IMG/VR virus record: IMGVR_UViG_2619619129_000001
Source of the DNA: a virus
Lineage: Duplodnaviria; Heunggongvirae; Uroviricota; Caudoviricetes
Length of the DNA stretch: 6,138 nucleotides
Reading direction: 5' to 3' (one strand)
Each line of letters starts with the position of its first letter. Positions within the stretch are counted from its first letter, which is position 1. This document shows positions 1-6,077 of this stretch, piece by piece. The notes beneath the pieces were generated by a model, which searched no databases, was not told the DNA's origin, and saw nothing but the letters and a program-made list of their open reading frames with translations. The translations under genes were made by a program, and so were the position numbers.

Positions 1-30
1 AGTGTATGATGGTGTTTTTGAGGTGCTCCA

Positions 31-306
31 GTGGCTTCTGTTTCTATCAGCTGTCCCTCCTGTTCAGCTACTGACGGGGTGGTGCGTAACGGCAAAAGCA
101 CTGCCGGACATCAGCGCTATCTCTGCTCTCACTGCCGTAAAACATGGCAACTGCAGTTCACTTACACCGCTTCTCAACCCGGTACGCACCAGAAAATCAT
201 TGATATGGCCATGAATGGCGTTGGATGCCGGGCAACTGCCCGCATTATGGGCGTTGGCCTCAACACGATTTTACGTCACTTAAAAAACTCAGGCCGCAGT
301 CGGTAA
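31..306 (+). CDS. insA: IS1 InsA transposition inhibitor / N-terminal part of the InsAB' transposase (GTG start)
   Basis: 91-aa translation [24 protein letters not shown]...LKNSGRSR, recognised as IS1 InsA; zinc-finger-like CPSC...CSHC motif. Confidence 0.9.
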
Positions 307-728
307 CCTCGCGCATACAGCCGGGCAGTGACGTCATCGTCTGCGCGGAAATGGACGAACAGTGGGGCTATGTCGGGGCTAAATCGCGCCAGCGCTGGCT
401 GTTTTACGCGTATGACAGGCTCCGGAAGACGGTTGTTGCGCACGTATTCGGTGAACGCACTATGGCGACGCTGGGGCGTCTTATGAGCCTGCTGTCACCC
501 TTTGACGTGGTGATATGGATGACGGATGGCTGGCCACTGTATGAATCCCGCCTGAAGGGAAAGCTGCACGTAATCAGCAAGCGATATACGCAGCGAATTG
601 AGCGGCATAACCTGAATCTGAGGCAGCACCTGGCACGGCTGGGACGGAAGTCGCTGTCGTTCTCAAAATCGGTGGAGCTGCATGACAAAGTCATCGGGCA
701 TTATCTGAACATAAAACACTATCAATAA
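225..728 (+). CDS. insB: IS1 InsB reading frame (expressed mainly as InsAB' fusion after a -1 frameshift)
   Basis: 167-aa frame [16 protein letters not shown]...HYLNIKHYQ, recognised as IS1 InsB; lies in the -1 frame relative to insA and overlaps its 3' end. Confidence 0.85.
282..288 (+). other. Programmed -1 ribosomal frameshift slippery site A AAA AAC joining insA to insB
   Basis: AAAAAAC heptamer at 282-288, in the insA frame as L-K-N (tta aaa aac), within the insA/insB overlap; established IS1 mechanism. Confidence 0.7.
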
Positions 729-1173
729 GTTGGAGTCATTACCCTATTTACTAAGAAGGGCTGAAGCATGGATACAATTATTACATGGATGGGAGATCGT
801 CTGTTGGGGGGACACAAAAATCCGATCTGCGGCAGATGGCGATCACTGGATTAACTTCCGCGATTTGTTCAACAATTTTGTACACTGAAAAATTAAAACA
901 TGGTGAGCCTATTAACCCAAACGAAGAAGAAAAACTTTATAGGCTTTGGTATGAAGGAAACGCTTGAAAGAATAAAGCACAATTAAAACCTTTGATTTGC
1001 GATAATCAACTTGCCATAATTAAGTAATCGAAGCCTGAACAACTCCGGTGACTTCTGCGCTAAACGGGGACGTTTATGCGCACATACAATCCAAACTCTC
1101 TTCTCCCTTCACAGATGCAGAGATGCACCTGCGATTTTTTGCATCCAGCGTTTGACCTCTGCGGAGGTGAAGC

Positions 1174-2663: not shown

Positions 2664-3047
2664 ATGCGTGATATTCAGATGGTTCTTGAGCGTTGGGGAG
2701 CGTGGGCGGCTAATAATCATGAAGATGTGACCTGGTCGTCCATTGCCGCCGGTTTTAAGGGATTAATTACTTCAAAAGTAAAATCTCGCCCGCAATGTTG
2801 TGACGATGACGCGATGATTATTTGCGGGTGCATGGCCCGTCTGAAAAAGAACAACAGCGATTTGCACGATTTATTAGTAGATTATTATGTAGTCGGTATG
2901 ACATTCATGTCACTGGCAGGTAAGCATTGCTGCTCTGATGGTTATATCGGGAAAAGGTTACAGAAGGCTGAGGGCATAATTGAAGGGATGTTAATGGCAT
3001 TAGATATCCGGTTAGAGATGGATATCGTTGTTAATAACTCTAATTAA
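2664..3047 (+). CDS. quuD: Late-gene antiterminator Q (127 aa), Cys-rich (CCDDD...CGC...CC)
   Basis: ATG at 2664 with GGAG 8 nt upstream; translation [22 protein letters not shown]... matches the DLP12 Q protein; the track ORF starts 5 codons earlier at a TTG. Confidence 0.85.
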
Positions 3048-3074
3048 TATGCCAATTATTTACTAAAACTTATT

Positions 3075-3105
3075 AAAAATGGGGCGTTGAGACGCCCCCA
3101 AAAAT
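3075..3105 (-). terminator. Candidate intrinsic terminator for minus-strand (nmpC) transcription: GGGGCG-ttgaga-CGCCCC hairpin at 3081-3098 flanked by A-runs on plus (T-runs on minus)
   Basis: Perfect 6-bp GC-rich stem, 6-nt loop; on the minus strand it is followed by ATTTTTAAT. Confidence 0.4.
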
Positions 3106-3186
3106 AAAGGGTAATATATAACAGAAGGTTTATATAGTTAGAAGCAAGGTTGTGCTTCTAAAGGAAGTGGCTTGAGGGAGCCACTT

Positions 3187-3228
3187 ATATGTTGGGGAGG
3201 CAACGCCTCCCGCAACATATCTTTTTCG
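3187..3228 (+). terminator. Candidate rho-independent terminator for plus-strand transcription: ATATGTTGGGGAGGC-aac-GCCTCCC(g)CAACATAT stem followed by CTTTTTCG
   Basis: About 15-bp stem with one bulge, 3-nt loop, then a 5-T run at 3222-3226; sits 8 bp from the nmpC stop codon. Confidence 0.55.
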
Positions 3229-3236
3229 TAATCAGA

Positions 3237-4334
3237 TTAGAACTGGTAAACCAGACCTACAGCAACGATGTCATCAGTGCTTACACCGAGTGCTTTAGTG
3301 AAGTCATTTTTGTCAAGCAGGTTGATTTTGTAATCAACGAAAGTAGACATATTTTTGTTGAAGTAATAGGTTGCACCTACATCAACATATTTGACTAAGT
3401 CCTGATCGCCCCATACTCCAAGATCCTTACCTTTAGATTGCAGGTAAGCAACGGACGGACGCAGACCGAAATCGAACTGATATTGTGCAACAGCTTCGAA
3501 GTTTTGGGCTTTATTAGCAACGAAGTGATCAGCAAATACAGTCATATTCTGGGTTTCAGAATAGGTAGTGGCCAGGTAAATGTTGTTAGCGTCATATTTC
3601 AGACCTGCGGCCCAAACTTCTGCATTTTTACCGGAAGCAAATACTTCAGGAAGAACTTTCCCTGCATTAACTTGAGTGTCGGTACGATCAGATTTCGCAT
3701 AAGTTGCACCGATACCGAATCCTTCGTATTCATAGGTAGCAGAGAAACCGAAGCCATCACCGTTACCTTCAGTGTAGTTATCGAAATCGCTACGATCGTT
3801 TTTGCCTTGGTACTGAGCAGCAAAGTTCAGACCATCAACCAGACCAAAGAAGTCGTTGTTACGATAGGTTGCAACACCAGTTGCACGTTGAGTCATGAAC
3901 ACGTCGGTTTGAGTCCAAGTGTCACCACCGAATTCTGGCAGGACGTCAGTCCACGCACCGATGTCGTATGCTACACCGTAGTTACGGCCGTAATCGATGG
4001 AGCCGTAGTCACCGAATTTCAGGCCAGCGAAGGCAAGACGGGTTTTATCTTTGGAGGAACCTTGAGATTCAGCGCGGTTGCCTTTGAATTCATATTCCCA
4101 CTGACCGAAACCAGTCAGTTGATCGTTGATTTGGGTTTCACCTTTGAAGCCAAGACGGGCATAAGTAGTATCACCATCATCTGCATCATTAGAGGAGAAG
4201 TAGTGCTTAGCATTAACTTTCCCGTACAGATCCAGCTTGTTACTGTCTTTATTATAAATTTCAGCTGCCTGAGCAGACATCGCCATCAGTACTGATGCAG
4301 CTACAGCAGAAATTGCCACTGTTAATTTTTTCAT
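3237..4334 (-). CDS. nmpC: Intact OmpC/OmpF-family outer-membrane porin (NmpC / Lc-like), 365 aa with signal peptide
   Basis: Signal peptide [23 protein letters not shown] then AEIYNKD...; PEFGG loop-3 motif; C-terminal ...GLVYQF ending in Phe; start chosen at the ATG at 4334 (AAGGG Shine-Dalgarno upstream) rather than the track's upstream ATG at 4394. Confidence 0.9.
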
Positions 4335-4480
4335 CGTGAGCCCTTTTTTTGAACTATTATTAAAAAATGATGTCACTGCGCGATAAATATTCATCTAATC
4401 AATGTGATTATTTCAAGATGTAAGTTTTGGTTTCTCGTTTGATTTGTGAAGTAGATCTCTATTTTTATCTGAACTTTTTT
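4335..4480 (-). promoter_or_regulatory. Probable nmpC promoter and 5' UTR region (exact -35/-10 not resolved)
   Basis: AT-rich sequence directly upstream of the porin start on the minus strand; porin genes typically carry 80-110-nt leaders. Positional inference only. Confidence 0.35.
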
Positions 4481-4703
4481 CTATCGAATCCTATTCATGG
4501 CTCTTGGCTGAATAAAAATAAATCTATTAGCCAATTTATATTAACGGCTGTTATTTATAAGTGCTCTATAATTTGAAGGTTCAATTTAAACCGGCTAAAA
4601 ATAACACTGGAAATTATTTGTTGGTTATTTGTTGAGATTTGCTTATGTATTTGTAGTGGTGTTTTCAATACTCGGTAGCATTCTCGCAAATATCATTTAG
4701 TGG

Positions 4704-4731
4704 TTTACGTACGTAAAAAATTGGTTATGCT
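4704..4731 (+). promoter_or_regulatory. Candidate sigma70-type promoter (TTTACG -16 nt- TATGCT) overlapping a 14-bp perfect palindrome; possible late promoter or leader promoter for the lysis cassette
   Basis: -35-like TTTACG 4704-4709, -10-like TATGCT 4726-4731; the spacer contains AAAATTGG, which resembles the phage lambda PR' spacer as I remember it; terminator about 30 bp downstream. Confidence 0.3.
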
Positions 4732-4761
4732 GTTAAGAGTGGTTACTTCGTCACACAGCTT

Positions 4762-4794
4762 AAACCCGCCGTCGAGCGGGTTTTTCCATTTTTT
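4762..4794 (+). terminator. Strong rho-independent terminator on plus strand: AAACCCGC-cgtcga-GCGGGTTT followed by TTCCATTTTTT
   Basis: 8-bp stem, 6-nt loop, immediately followed by a T-rich tract; about 110 bp upstream of the holin start. tR'-like position. Confidence 0.7.
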
Positions 4795-4906
4795 GAGTCT
4801 CGATATTAGCTGATAACCCAATACCTGAGTTATTCACTGACTCCGAGTCTGTTACGTTTCGTAGTATTCCCTCAATTTACACCCGCTTTGTCTGCGAGGT
4901 GGGGTT

Positions 4907-5122
4907 ATGAAATCCATGGATAAGTTAACAACGGGTGTCGCCTATGGCACCTCAGCAGGTAGTGCCGGGTACTGGTTTTTACAGCTGCTAGATAAAGTCA
5001 CGCCCTCACAGTGGGCGGCAATTGGAGTGCTGGGTAGCCTGGTATTTGGCCTGCTGACGTACCTGACAAACCTTTATTTCAAGATTAAAGAAGATAAGCG
5101 CAAGGCTGCGAGAGGTGGATAA
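4907..5122 (+). CDS. essD: Phage 21-type class II holin (pinholin), 71 aa, dual-start motif MKSM
   Basis: Translation [29 protein letters not shown]...[11 protein letters not shown] resembles S21; GAGGTGGGG Shine-Dalgarno; two in-frame Met codons (4907 and 4916); stop overlaps the rrrD start (TAATG). Confidence 0.9.
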
Positions 5123-5619
5123 TGTCGCCATCATTACGCAAGGCTGTAGCAGCTGCTATTGGTGGTGGGGCTGTTGCCATAGCGTCTGTGCTCATCACTG
5201 GTCCGAGTGGTGACGATGGTCTGGAAGGTGTCAGCTACATACCATATAAAGATATCGTTGGCGTATGGACTGTATGTCACGGGCATACAGGAAAAGACAT
5301 CATTCCCGGTAAAACGTATACCGAAGCAGAATGCAAAGCCCTCCTGAATAAAGACCTTGCCACTGTCGCCAGACAAATTAACCCGTACATCAAAGTCGAT
5401 ATACCGGAAACAACGCGCGGCGCTCTTTACTCGTTCGTCTACAACGTGGGTGCTGGCAATTTCAGAATATCGACGCTTCTTCGCAAAATAAACCAGGGTG
5501 ATATCAAAGGCGCATGTGATCAGCTACGTCGCTGGACATATGCTGGCGGTAAGCAATGGAAAGGTCTCATGACTCGTCGTGAGATTGAGCGTGAAATCTG
5601 TTTGTGGGGTAAGCAATGA
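5122..5619 (+). CDS. rrrD: SAR (signal-anchor-release) endolysin, T4-lysozyme-like muramidase, 165 aa
   Basis: N-terminal Gly/Ala-rich weakly hydrophobic segment [20 protein letters not shown], then a lysozyme-like domain (LEGVSY...[15 protein letters not shown]); resembles phage 21 R. Confidence 0.9.
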
Positions 5620-6077
5620 ACAGAGTAACCGCGATTATCTCCGCTCTGGTTATCTGCATCATCGTCTGCCTGTCATGGGCTGTTAATCATTACCGTGATA
5701 ACGCCATTACCTACAAAGCCCAGCGCGACAAAAATGCCAGAGAACTGAAGCTGGCGAACGCGGCAATTACTGACATGCAGATGCGCCAGCGTGATGTTGC
5801 TGCACTGGATGAAAAATACACGAAGGAGTTAGCTAATGCGAAAGCTGAAAATGATGCTCTGCGTGATGATGTTGCCGCTGGTCGTCGTCGGTTGCACATC
5901 AAAGCAGTCTGTCAGTCAGTGCGTGAAGCCACCACCGCCTCCGGCGTGGATAATGCAGCCTCCCCCCGACTGGCAGACACCGCTGAACGGGATTATTTCA
6001 CCCTCAGAGAGAGGCTGATCACTATGCAAAAACAACTGGAAGGAACCCAGAAGTATATTAATGAGCAGTGCAGATAG
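5616..6077 (+). CDS. rzpD: Rz-type inner-membrane spanin (i-spanin), 153 aa
   Basis: N-terminal TM segment [18 protein letters not shown] followed by a charged, coiled-coil-like region; start overlaps the rrrD stop (ATGA). Confidence 0.9.
5836..6018 (+). CDS. rzoD: Rz1-type outer-membrane lipoprotein spanin (o-spanin), 60 aa, fully embedded in rzpD in the +1 frame
   Basis: Lipobox LVVVGC (Cys20) after a signal-like N-terminus, Pro-rich mature part (PPPPPAW...PPPDW); classic embedded Rz1 arrangement. Confidence 0.85.

What the first reader, a model, noticed from the sequence alone, without database searches (positions are those of the whole stretch)
4704..4717. 14-bp perfect palindrome TTTACGTACGTAAA overlapping the candidate -35 element
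A perfectly symmetric 14-mer is unlikely by chance in a 572-bp intergenic region and sits where a dimeric regulator (or a Q-binding element) would be expected to act on the promoter in front of the lysis cassette.
Basis: seen in the sequence. Interest (0 to 1): 0.5.

Follow-up and report, generated by a model that had tools for sequence, protein, structure and literature searches.

The report
Palindromic Q-binding site in late promoter
The 14-base palindrome sits on the -35 element of a prophage late promoter (pR') and is most likely the docking site for the prophage's own Q antiterminator, which switches on the lysis genes; relatives of this Q control Shiga toxin genes from sites built the same way.

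Summary
The palindrome TTTACGTACGTAAA is present exactly at 4704-4717. Alone it is weak evidence: 5% of shuffled intergenic regions contain a perfect palindrome of 14 bp or more. Comparison gives it meaning. The segment is homologous to the annotated late promoter pR' of phage 933W (-35 TTTACG, -10 TATGCT, start near 4738, terminator 4762-4795). The window is a DLP12/PA-2-type prophage in which the porin gene nmpC lies between the Q gene and pR'. In about 200 related loci from many enterobacterial genera, a dyad-symmetric element is centred at the same place (-27.5/-28). Its sequence differs between phages but stays symmetric, for example ACGTACGT, ACGATCGT, GCGTACGC, GCGGtCCGC, TGTTATAACA and TGGAATTCCA. 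Each dyad type goes with one clade of Q protein (Pfam PF06530), and no other neighbouring gene tracks it. One residue in the Q helix-turn-helix turn (Gly93 here, Thr elsewhere) tracks the central TA versus AT in 42 of 43 distinct Q/dyad pairs, across at least five switches. H-19B and 933W share a dyad but have different CI/Cro. I conclude (confidence about 0.7, no binding data) that this is the Q-binding element. It is an inverted repeat overlapping the -35, unlike the direct repeat of phage 21. That makes it a new variant of a known kind.

The parts
2664..3047 (+). Q antiterminator gene (QuuD type, 127 aa; the ORF can also be read from TTG at 2649), the proposed partner of the palindrome
   Evidence: It matches Pfam PF06530 at E=4e-53 over the full model. 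It matches Q21 chains in the PDB at E=7e-7 over residues 13-92. It is identical to K-12 quuD-type proteins.
2940..2942 (+). Codon for Gly93 (GGT) in the turn of the Q helix-turn-helix (..[12 protein letters not shown]..), which co-varies with the central dinucleotide of the dyad
   Evidence: CSDG goes with central TA in 20/20 distinct Q/dyad pairs and CSDT with central AT in 22/23. The state switches at least 5 times on the Q tree. The neighbouring K/R site does not track it.
3237..4334 (-). Porin gene nmpC/lc, cargo inserted between Q and its promoter
   Evidence: ORF listing. The PA-2 and K-12 records annotate it as lc/nmpC. In 933W and H-19B the Q stop codon lies inside the dyad with no insert.
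4704..4717 (.). The 14-bp perfect palindrome, proposed core of the Q-binding element, centred at -27.5 and spanning -34 to -21
4704..4709 (+). -35 hexamer TTTACG of pR' (left half of the palindrome)
   Evidence: It aligns with the annotated pR' of 933W (NC_000924 20666-20693), which has the same hexamer and the same 16-nt spacer.
4715..4720 (+). A6 tract that continues the right arm; an A or T tract follows the dyad in nearly all classes
   Evidence: In the GCGTACGC class the invariant block is TAAcGCGtACGCAAAAA while both flanks vary.
4726..4731 (+). -10 hexamer TATGCT
   Evidence: A TAnnnT pattern is conserved at this position in all promoter classes. 933W has TATCAT annotated here.
4737..4738 (+). 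Inferred transcription start (G4737/A4738)
   Evidence: PMC7547250 places the pR' start 258 nt upstream of the tR' 3' end in Sakai Stx phages. In 933W this gives A1960 of locus L004, which aligns with window 4738.
4734..4757 (+). Conserved initial transcribed sequence TAAGAGTGGTTACTTCGTCACAC, the candidate sigma-dependent pause and Q-loading region
   Evidence: It is nearly invariant across promoter classes whose upstream parts differ. No pausing data exist for it.
4762..4795 (+). Intrinsic terminator tR': an 8-bp G+C-rich stem with a 6-nt loop (4762-4783), then TTTTTCCATTTTTT
   Evidence: Found by the terminator scan. The RNA fold gives -12 to -13.9 kcal/mol. It is conserved in related loci. 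Phage 21 has a terminator at +3 to +50 in the same arrangement.
4907..6077 (+). Lysis cassette controlled by pR'/Q: holin essD 4907-5122, SAR endolysin rrrD 5122-5619, spanins rzpD 5616-6077 and rzoD 5836-6018
   Evidence: ORFs. essD matches Pfam Phage_holin_2_1. K-12 and 434 record annotation.

Best explanation
The palindrome is the core of the Q-binding element (the upstream part of 'qut') of the prophage late promoter pR'.

Proposed mechanism, with shown and inferred steps marked:
1. RNA polymerase with sigma-70 starts at about 4738 from a promoter with a weak -35 (TTTACG, the left half of the palindrome) and -10 TATGCT. This is shown by homology and by a start site mapped in relatives.
2. 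Without Q, transcription stops at the hairpin terminator 4762-4795, so the lysis genes stay silent. This is inferred.
3. When the QuuD-type Q protein (2664-3047) is made, two protomers bind the two half-sites (TTTACGT / ACGTAAA) head to head through their sigma-region-4-like helix-turn-helix. Residue 93 in the turn lies near the dyad centre. This is inferred from covariation.
4. The site overlaps the -35, so it becomes free once sigma region 4 lets go after promoter escape. One bound Q then engages the polymerase held in the conserved initial transcribed region. It rides with the polymerase and carries it through the terminator into essD-rrrD-rzpD/rzoD. This is inferred by analogy with Q21.

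The site architecture, an inverted repeat over the -35, differs from the phage 21 site. That site is two direct 8-bp repeats lying wholly in the spacer.
For: Position and promoter identity
- The segment is homologous to the annotated pR' of 933W, with the same -35 and the same spacing.
- The dRNA-seq start site in Sakai phages (PMC7547250) maps to the equivalent of 4738.
- A terminator follows within 50 nt, as in phage 21.

Symmetry is conserved while sequence changes
- In 124 loci anchored on the conserved transcribed sequence, the symmetry profile peaks at -27.5/-28.
- 24 of 28 distinct variants have perfect arms of at least 4 bp there, against 0.5% at other positions.

The dyad tracks Q and nothing else
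- Each dyad type maps to one Q clade with no discordance among 54 unique Q proteins.
- Among all ORF clusters within -4.5/+3.5 kb, only Q is perfectly associated with the dyad in the two large heterogeneous classes (17/17 and 21/21). Neighbouring genes are shared between classes.
- The association survives inserts of 8 to 2464 bp between Q and pR'.

Phylogenetic footprint
- TTTACGTACGTAAA is exact in E. coli, Shigella, Trabulsiella, Pantoea, Xenorhabdus and Photorhabdus, while the flanks, the -10 and the leader diverge.
- In the GCGTACGC class, 13 distinct sequences share only TAAcGCGtACGCAAAAA.

Protein-DNA covariation
- CSDG goes with central TA (20/20) and CSDT with central AT (22/23), over at least 5 switches on the tree.
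- The K/R site four codons away does not track the dyad (TA: 11 R, 9 K; AT: 17 R, 6 K).
- The hybrid Q of L097 keeps a QuuD-type helix-turn-helix and has the QuuD dyad, in an otherwise 933W-like promoter.

Other points
- The right half-site lies where QBEu of phage 21 lies: the Q21 QBE spans -27 to -12.
- It is not a CI/Cro operator. H-19B and 933W share the dyad, but their CI N-terminal domains and Cro proteins are unrelated.
Against: - I could reach no binding, footprint or mutational data. The two DLP12 Q papers (Rueggeberg 2013 and 2015) are not held.
- Q21, the only relative with a solved complex, binds a direct repeat that does not overlap the -35. A symmetric dimer is therefore an extrapolation.
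- Q and pR' are closely linked, so part of the covariation could be co-inheritance or block recombination.
- There is one exception to the G/T rule, L140.
- Most loci were found through the conserved transcribed sequence, which biases the sample. The genome scan anchored on Q reduces this bias.
- The sigma-dependent pause element is not identified.
Confidence: 0.7

Rival explanations
1. Q binds the palindrome but acts there as an ordinary activator or repressor of initiation (a 'Q-like transcription factor'), not as a loaded antiterminator.
For: The site overlaps the -35, a position typical of repressors and of some activators. PMC7918800 cites work that calls Q of DLP12 a Q-like transcription factor controlling the lysis cassette.
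Against: The protein is a full-length PF06530 member related to Q21. A conserved terminator lies 25-50 nt after the start, as in phage 21. In Stx phages this promoter type is constitutive and is controlled by antitermination (PMC7547250).
Confidence: 0.1
2. The palindrome is the operator of another phage-encoded dimeric regulator (not Q) that happens to be inherited with Q.
For: Dyad symmetry is typical of dimeric helix-turn-helix repressors. Flanks beyond about 4.5 kb were not examined.
Against: No other ORF cluster within -4.5/+3.5 kb tracks the dyad class. CI and Cro differ between H-19B and 933W, which share the dyad. A residue in the Q helix-turn-helix tracks the dyad centre. The AppY motif is unrelated, and essD and nmpC are not among the AppY targets reported in the main text.
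Confidence: 0.07
3. It is only promoter architecture: a -35 hexamer plus A/T-rich spacer whose symmetry has no function of its own.
For: TTTACG is the -35. Alone, a 14-bp palindrome is not rare (5% of shuffled regions). The promoter is thought to be constitutive in relatives.
Against: Other classes keep the symmetry while losing any resemblance to a -35 (TAACGC, ATTCGT). The symmetry peak sits at one fixed position, and changes occur on both arms. The element is exactly conserved across genera while the -10 and spacer drift.
Confidence: 0.07
4. The palindrome serves as a shared -35 for a divergent leftward promoter (-35 TTTACG on the minus strand, 17 nt, GATATT at 4694-4689) that drives nmpC.
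For: Read from the sequence, the minus-strand hexamers score 8 of 12, the same as pR' itself.
Against: The dyad is present and conserved in many phages without nmpC, where the upstream DNA encodes Q. The nmpC start codon is about 350 nt away, and the PA-2 record places a CRP site close to the lc start codon, far from the palindrome.
Confidence: 0.03

Closest known systems
Q-binding element of phage 21 pR' (Q21, PF06530; structures 6P18-6P1C and 6JNX; Yin et al. 2019, bioRxiv 10.1101/651190)
   Same: It has the same protein family. The Q site lies in the late promoter upstream of the -10. The terminator lies within about 50 nt of the start, and two protomers bind per site. The right half of the palindrome (-27 to -21) coincides with QBEu of phage 21 (-27 to -20).
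   Different: Q21 binds two direct 8-bp repeats (ATTGAGCA, AATGAGCA) that lie wholly between -35 and -10. Here the site is a perfect inverted repeat covering the -35 hexamer. Q21 matches PF06530 only over profile positions 3-90, whereas QuuD and Q933 match 1-118, so the recognition-helix part differs.
pR' of Shiga-toxin phages 933W and H-19B (annotated in NC_000924; StxS leader RNA, PMC7547250)
   Same: The promoter is homologous: the -35 is TTTACG, the spacing is the same, the transcribed sequence is conserved, and Q is 78-81% identical. It carries the sister palindrome TTTACGATCGTAAA.
   Different: The central dinucleotide is AT instead of TA, matched by Thr instead of Gly in the Q turn. The Q stop codon lies inside the dyad, with no nmpC insert. 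The 933W record marks 'qut' at a different place, in the transcribed region, and does not mention the dyad. The working tR' there is at +258.
Q-binding element of phage lambda pR' (PF03589 family; PMC9388147)
   Same: The role and general location are the same: a Q site in the late promoter, used while polymerase pauses just downstream.
   Different: Lambda Q is unrelated in fold and binds as a monomer to an asymmetric 13-bp site.
CI/Cro operators of lambdoid phages
   Same: They are short dyad-symmetric sites that overlap promoter hexamers and differ between phages along with their protein.
   Different: Operators come in groups of three at pL and pR and track the immunity region. This dyad is single, lies at pR', and is shared by phages with different CI/Cro.

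Membership tests
Q-binding element (qut/QBE) of a lambdoid late promoter | It lies in a sigma-70 promoter that is followed by an early intrinsic terminator and then the late (lysis) genes. | tested here: met
   The promoter is homologous to annotated 933W pR'. The start site was mapped in relatives. The terminator is at 4762-4795. The lysis cassette starts at 4907.
Q-binding element (qut/QBE) of a lambdoid late promoter | A cognate Q antiterminator gene is in the same element. | tested here: met
   The Q gene at 2664-3047 matches PF06530 at E=4e-53 and Q21 in the PDB at E=7e-7.
Q-binding element (qut/QBE) of a lambdoid late promoter | The site sequence is specific to the Q type, that is, it co-varies with Q. 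| tested here: met
   Q clade and dyad type correspond one to one. Only Q among the neighbours is associated with the dyad. The Gly/Thr residue tracks the TA/AT centre in 42/43 pairs.
Q-binding element (qut/QBE) of a lambdoid late promoter | Q protein physically binds the site, and the site is needed for antitermination. | not testable with these tools
   This needs EMSA or footprinting and reporter assays. The papers on DLP12 Q are not held.
Q-binding element (qut/QBE) of a lambdoid late promoter | A sigma-dependent pause element lies just downstream. | tested here: inconclusive
   The conserved transcribed block TAAGAGTGGTTAC contains -10-like strings (TGnTAAGAG; TTACTT, or TACATT in 933W). 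There are no pausing data and the placement is unclear.
Q21-type QBE architecture | Two directly repeated 8-bp subsites lie between the -35 and -10 elements. | tested here: not met
   The element is an inverted repeat spanning -34 to -21 and overlapping the -35. The classes TGGAATTCCA and TGTTATAACA contain no direct repeat.
CI/Cro operator | The site tracks the immunity (cI/cro) type and occurs as clustered repeats. | tested here: not met
   There is a single copy in the window. H-19B and 933W share the dyad, but their CI N-terminal domains and Cro are unrelated.
CRP site (as annotated in the PA-2 record) | It matches TGTGA-N6-TCACA. | tested here: not met
   The PA-2 CRP annotation (L001 1730-1750) covers the transcribed sequence GTGGTTACTTCGTCACA, not the palindrome at L001 1696-1709. 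Read directly, the palindrome has no TGTGA or TCACA.

The most novel reading that the evidence does not exclude
The QuuD/Q933 branch of the Q21 family, which includes the antiterminator that turns on Shiga toxin 2, loads onto RNA polymerase from a two-fold symmetric dimer site that overlaps the promoter -35. This geometry is unlike both Q21 (tandem protomers in the spacer) and lambda Q (a monomer). Recognition may follow a simple code in which the turn residue (Gly or Thr) selects the central TA or AT. Each Q clade would then have its own private palindrome, which insulates co-resident prophages from one another.
Probability: 0.55. Interest if true: 0.65.

Novelty: new variant of a known kind. 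Interest (0 to 1): 0.55.

Why it matters
Q-dependent antitermination at pR' is the step that releases Shiga toxin and phage lysis genes. About half of complete E. coli genomes carry this particular promoter segment. The binding site and loading geometry are known structurally only for Q21 and lambda Q.

A palindromic site over the -35, with a different private sequence for each Q clade, would have three consequences:
- It would explain why Q proteins of co-resident prophages do not cross-activate.
- It would give a sequence rule for predicting which Q drives which stx or lysis operon.
- It would offer a small target, 14 bp and one residue, for experiments or for blocking toxin induction.

The analysis also shows that cargo genes such as nmpC are repeatedly inserted just upstream of this site without separating Q from its target functionally.

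Tried and rejected
- Rfam scan of the whole window at E<=1 found no RNA family.
- The consensus promoter scan found nothing in 3000-5000, because pR' scores only 8 of 12. It was therefore no help in placing the promoter.
- Full-text search for the palindrome and neighbouring strings in papers returned nothing.
- Searches for a described palindromic QBE, or for a Q933 binding site, found nothing relevant.
- Rueggeberg 2013 is not held.
- The Sakai record is held as version 2, so the paper's version 1 coordinates could not be applied directly. I used the 258-nt distance to tR' instead.
- Single-sequence AlphaFold2 of QuuD gave pLDDT 42.6 and was discarded, so no fold search was run.
- My first attempt to list the best palindrome per class used the wrong index range, and I redid it.
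- I checked AppY and the Rac regulator YdaT as possible binders, and neither is relevant.
- I considered a direct-repeat reading (TACG TACG; ACGC-N2-ACGC). I rejected it because several classes have no direct repeat, whereas nearly all have the inverted one.
- I considered a host factor and rejected it, because the sequence differs between phages of the same host.

Full report
**Observation.** The sequence TTTACGTACGTAAA lies at 4704-4717 and is a perfect 14-bp palindrome. No second copy exists in the window, even with two mismatches allowed. Taken alone it is not striking. 5.2% of dinucleotide-preserving shuffles of the intergenic core, and 35% of shuffles of the whole window, contain a perfect palindrome of at least 14 bp. 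The window also holds a second one inside nmpC, at 4284-4297.

**Context.** The window is the late-control region of a DLP12/PA-2-type lambdoid prophage:

| Coordinates | Strand | Feature |
|---|---|---|
| 1-743 | | IS1 |
| 1174-1629 | + | ybcN-like ORF |
| 1629-1799 | + | ninE |
| to 2082 | + | ybcO |
| 2079-2441 | + | rusA |
| 2438-2578 | + | ylcG |
| 2664-3047 | + | Q gene (Pfam PF06530, E=4e-53) |
| 3237-4334 | - | porin gene nmpC/lc |
| 4335-4906 | | 572-bp spacer |
| 4907-6077 | + | essD, rrrD, rzpD/rzoD |

The 4396-4906 segment is 99-100% identical in phage 434B and several new E. coli phages, and 93.5% identical in PA-2. A 271-bp piece around the palindrome occurs in 2658 of 5426 complete E. 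coli genomes. K-12 MG1655 has the identical palindrome at 577,195-577,208.

**The promoter.** Window 4703-4790 aligns with the region just after gene Q in Shiga-toxin phages 933W and H-19B. The 933W record annotates this as the late promoter pR', with -35 TTTACG, a 16-nt spacer and -10 TATCAT. The window equivalents are TTTACG at 4704-4709 and TATGCT at 4726-4731.

Sy et al. (PMC7547250) mapped the pR' start in Sakai Stx phages by dRNA-seq to 258 nt upstream of the tR' 3' end. In 933W this puts the start at the A of TAAGAG (L004 1960), which corresponds to window 4738 +/-1. A hairpin of 8 bp followed by a T-run lies at 4762-4795. This is the arrangement annotated in phage 21, where the terminator is at +3 to +50. 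The palindrome therefore spans -34 to -21, is centred at -27.5, and its left half is the -35 hexamer.

**Comparative test.** 933W and H-19B carry TTTACGATCGTAAA at the same place. This is also a perfect 14-mer that differs only by TA to AT at the centre. Another Stx2a phage carries GCGTACGC.

I scanned viral contigs for the conserved transcribed sequence (TAAGAGTGGTTAC...), which gave 120 loci. Upstream of this common block the sequence falls into discrete classes. Nearly all of them have a dyad at the same coordinate:
- TTTACGTACGTAAA
- TTTACGATCGTAAA
- TTTACAATCGTAAA (one broken pair)
- GCGTACGC
- GCGGtCCGC
- TGTTATAACA
- TGGAATTCCA
- ATTCGTtACGAAT

A symmetry profile over the whole 150-nt region peaks at -27.5/-28. 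24 of 28 distinct variants have perfect arms of at least 4 bp there, against 0.47% of other positions. Symmetry is kept while the sequence changes on both arms, which is the signature of a site read by a two-fold symmetric protein. Several classes have no direct repeat and no resemblance to a -35. This rules out 'direct repeat' and 'just a -35' as the shared feature.

**Which protein.** A tree of the 54 distinct PF06530 proteins found upstream of these promoters matches the dyad classes exactly. The distance from the Q stop to the promoter varies from 8 to 2464 bp within a class, because different cargo genes are inserted there. nmpC is the insert in this window.

I clustered all ORFs within -4.5/+3.5 kb. 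Only Q is perfectly associated with the dyad in the two large, heterogeneous classes (17/17 and 21/21). The genes on either side are shared between classes.

The element is not a CI/Cro operator. H-19B and 933W share the dyad. Their CI proteins are alike only in the C-terminal domain, and their Cro proteins are unrelated. AppY and YdaT, other prophage regulators of K-12, are not relevant.

**Generalisation without the transcribed-sequence anchor.** A scan of one genome per species for Q relatives returned 80 loci in Escherichia, Shigella, Trabulsiella, Pantoea, Citrobacter, Xenorhabdus, Photorhabdus, Proteus, Morganella, Yersinia, Serratia and others.
- TTTACGTACGTAAA or TTTACGATCGTAAA lies directly after Q in Trabulsiella, Pantoea, Xenorhabdus, Photorhabdus, Proteus, Morganella, Arsenophonus and Brenneria. 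The spacing to the -10 is the same, while the flanks, the -10 and the leader have diverged.
- The block TAACGCGTACGCAAAAA is invariant in 13 distinct E. coli-type sequences and recurs in Yersinia, Serratia, Kosakonia, Enterobacter and Rahnella.
- Further classes appear: TGTAATTACA, GTAATTAC, TTTCGTAACGAAA and AACACAATATATTGTGTT.

**Residue-base covariation.** Within the QuuD/Q933 group the helix-turn-helix reads ..C-S-D-X-x-I-G-K-(R/K)-L-Q-K-A-E-G... X is Gly in all 20 distinct proteins paired with a TA centre. X is Thr in 22 of 23 paired with an AT centre, the exception being L140.

On the Q tree the TA/AT state changes at least five times, and the residue follows in four of them. The K/R site four codons away does not track the dyad (TA: 11 R, 9 K; AT: 17 R, 6 K). 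This argues against simple linkage.

In this window the codon (2940-2942, Gly93) and the dyad are 1.76 kb apart and still match. The L097 protein is a hybrid, 82.5% identical to both QuuD and Q933. It has the QuuD-type turn and the TA dyad in an otherwise 933W-like promoter.

Yin et al. report that Q21 has a fold related to region 4 of ECF sigma factors, and one family member gives a weak Sigma70_ECF hit. By comparison with the sigma 4.2 motif, residue 93 would sit at the turn or N-cap of the recognition helix. That placement is my inference.

**Relation to what is known.** Yin et al. assign PF06530 to the Q21 family (PMC9388147). Q21 binds as two protomers to two direct 8-bp repeats, ATTGAGCA and AATGAGCA. 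The phage 21 record places these at -27 to -12, entirely between the -35 and the -10.

The palindrome's right half coincides with the upstream Q21 subsite. The overall architecture differs: it is an inverted repeat that covers the -35. Consistent with a different DNA-reading part, Q21 matches the Pfam model only over positions 3-90. QuuD and Q933 match all 118 positions. Lambda Q is unrelated and binds as a monomer to an asymmetric site.

I found no paper that describes this dyad or maps the Q933/QuuD site. The 933W record marks a putative 'qut' in the transcribed region instead. The two papers on DLP12 Q and on RpoE control of essD are not in the library, so prior mapping cannot be excluded.

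**Mechanism proposed.**
- Shown: the promoter identity, its position relative to the start site, the downstream terminator-like hairpin and lysis genes, conservation of the symmetry, and exclusive covariation with Q.
- Inferred: two Q protomers bind the half-sites once sigma region 4 has left the -35. One protomer engages polymerase held in the conserved initial transcribed region and converts it to a terminator-resistant form. That form reads through 4762-4795 into the lysis cassette.

Confidence that the palindrome is the Q-binding element is about 0.7. The main rivals are:
- Q acting there as a plain activator or repressor (0.1).
- Another co-inherited regulator (0.07).
- Promoter architecture only (0.07).
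- A divergent nmpC promoter (0.03).

**Verdict.** The feature is a new variant of a known kind: a dyad-symmetric, clade-specific Q-binding element in the branch of the Q21 family that includes the Shiga-toxin antiterminator.

Noticed in passing
window 3048-4703; loci L007-L126: The gap between the Q stop codon and the pR' dyad is a recurrent cargo-insertion point. The distance from the Q end to the promoter ranges from 8 to 2464 bp within a single dyad class, and homology between phages resumes right at the dyad. Here the cargo is nmpC.
   Followed up: partly
window 4734-4757: The initial transcribed sequence TAAGAGTGGTTACTTCG(T/C)CACAC is nearly invariant across promoter classes. The 1986 PA-2 record annotates it as a CRP site. 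It can form a small RNA hairpin (GUGG...UCAC). TGnTAAGAG resembles an extended -10 overlapping the start site. Its role (pause element, CRP control or RNA structure) is open.
   Followed up: partly
L004 1984-2008 (933W), equivalent to window 4762-4790: 933W and Sakai have the same conserved hairpin plus U7 at +25 to +49. Yet the StxS study maps the terminated pR' RNA 3' end at +258. Either the first hairpin leaks or a roughly 50-nt RNA was not looked for.
   Followed up: no
window 4284-4297: A second perfect 14-bp palindrome, CATCAGTACTGATG, lies inside the nmpC signal-peptide codons. It shows that such palindromes occur by chance at this scale.
   Followed up: no
window 1-743: An IS1 copy (insA/insB ORFs, right inverted repeat ending at 743) fills the left end of the window and truncates whatever preceded ybcN.
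   Followed up: partly
window 3237-4334: nmpC is intact here (365 aa). In K-12 MG1655 and in the phage 434B record it is split by IS5.
   Followed up: partly
window 3081-3098 (minus strand) and 3003-3026: Terminator-like hairpins lie between the Q stop and the nmpC stop. GGGGCGTCTCAACGCCCC on the minus strand probably ends nmpC transcription.
   Followed up: no
L140 (Photorhabdus cinerea): This is the single exception to the Gly/Thr-TA/AT rule: a CSDG protein next to TTTACGATCGTAAA.
   Followed up: no
L172-L188 (Proteus), L173/L185 (Xenorhabdus): Much longer perfect palindromes lie directly after Q: AACACAATATATTGTGTT in Proteus and TATAGGAATATTCCTATA in Xenorhabdus. The Proteus promoters lack the conserved transcribed block.
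   Followed up: no
L159, L209: Contigs labelled as a Candidatus Nanosynbacter MAG and an Erysipelotrichaceae MAG carry enterobacterial-type Q genes. L209 also has the pR' sequence. These are probably mis-binned.
   Followed up: no
window 4466-4510: PMC7918800 cites an RpoE-dependent promoter for the DLP12 lysis cassette and uses a -121 to +650 fragment. That would fit a start near 4500, upstream of pR', where GAACTT occurs at 4472-4477. I could not verify this because the source paper is not held.
   Followed up: no
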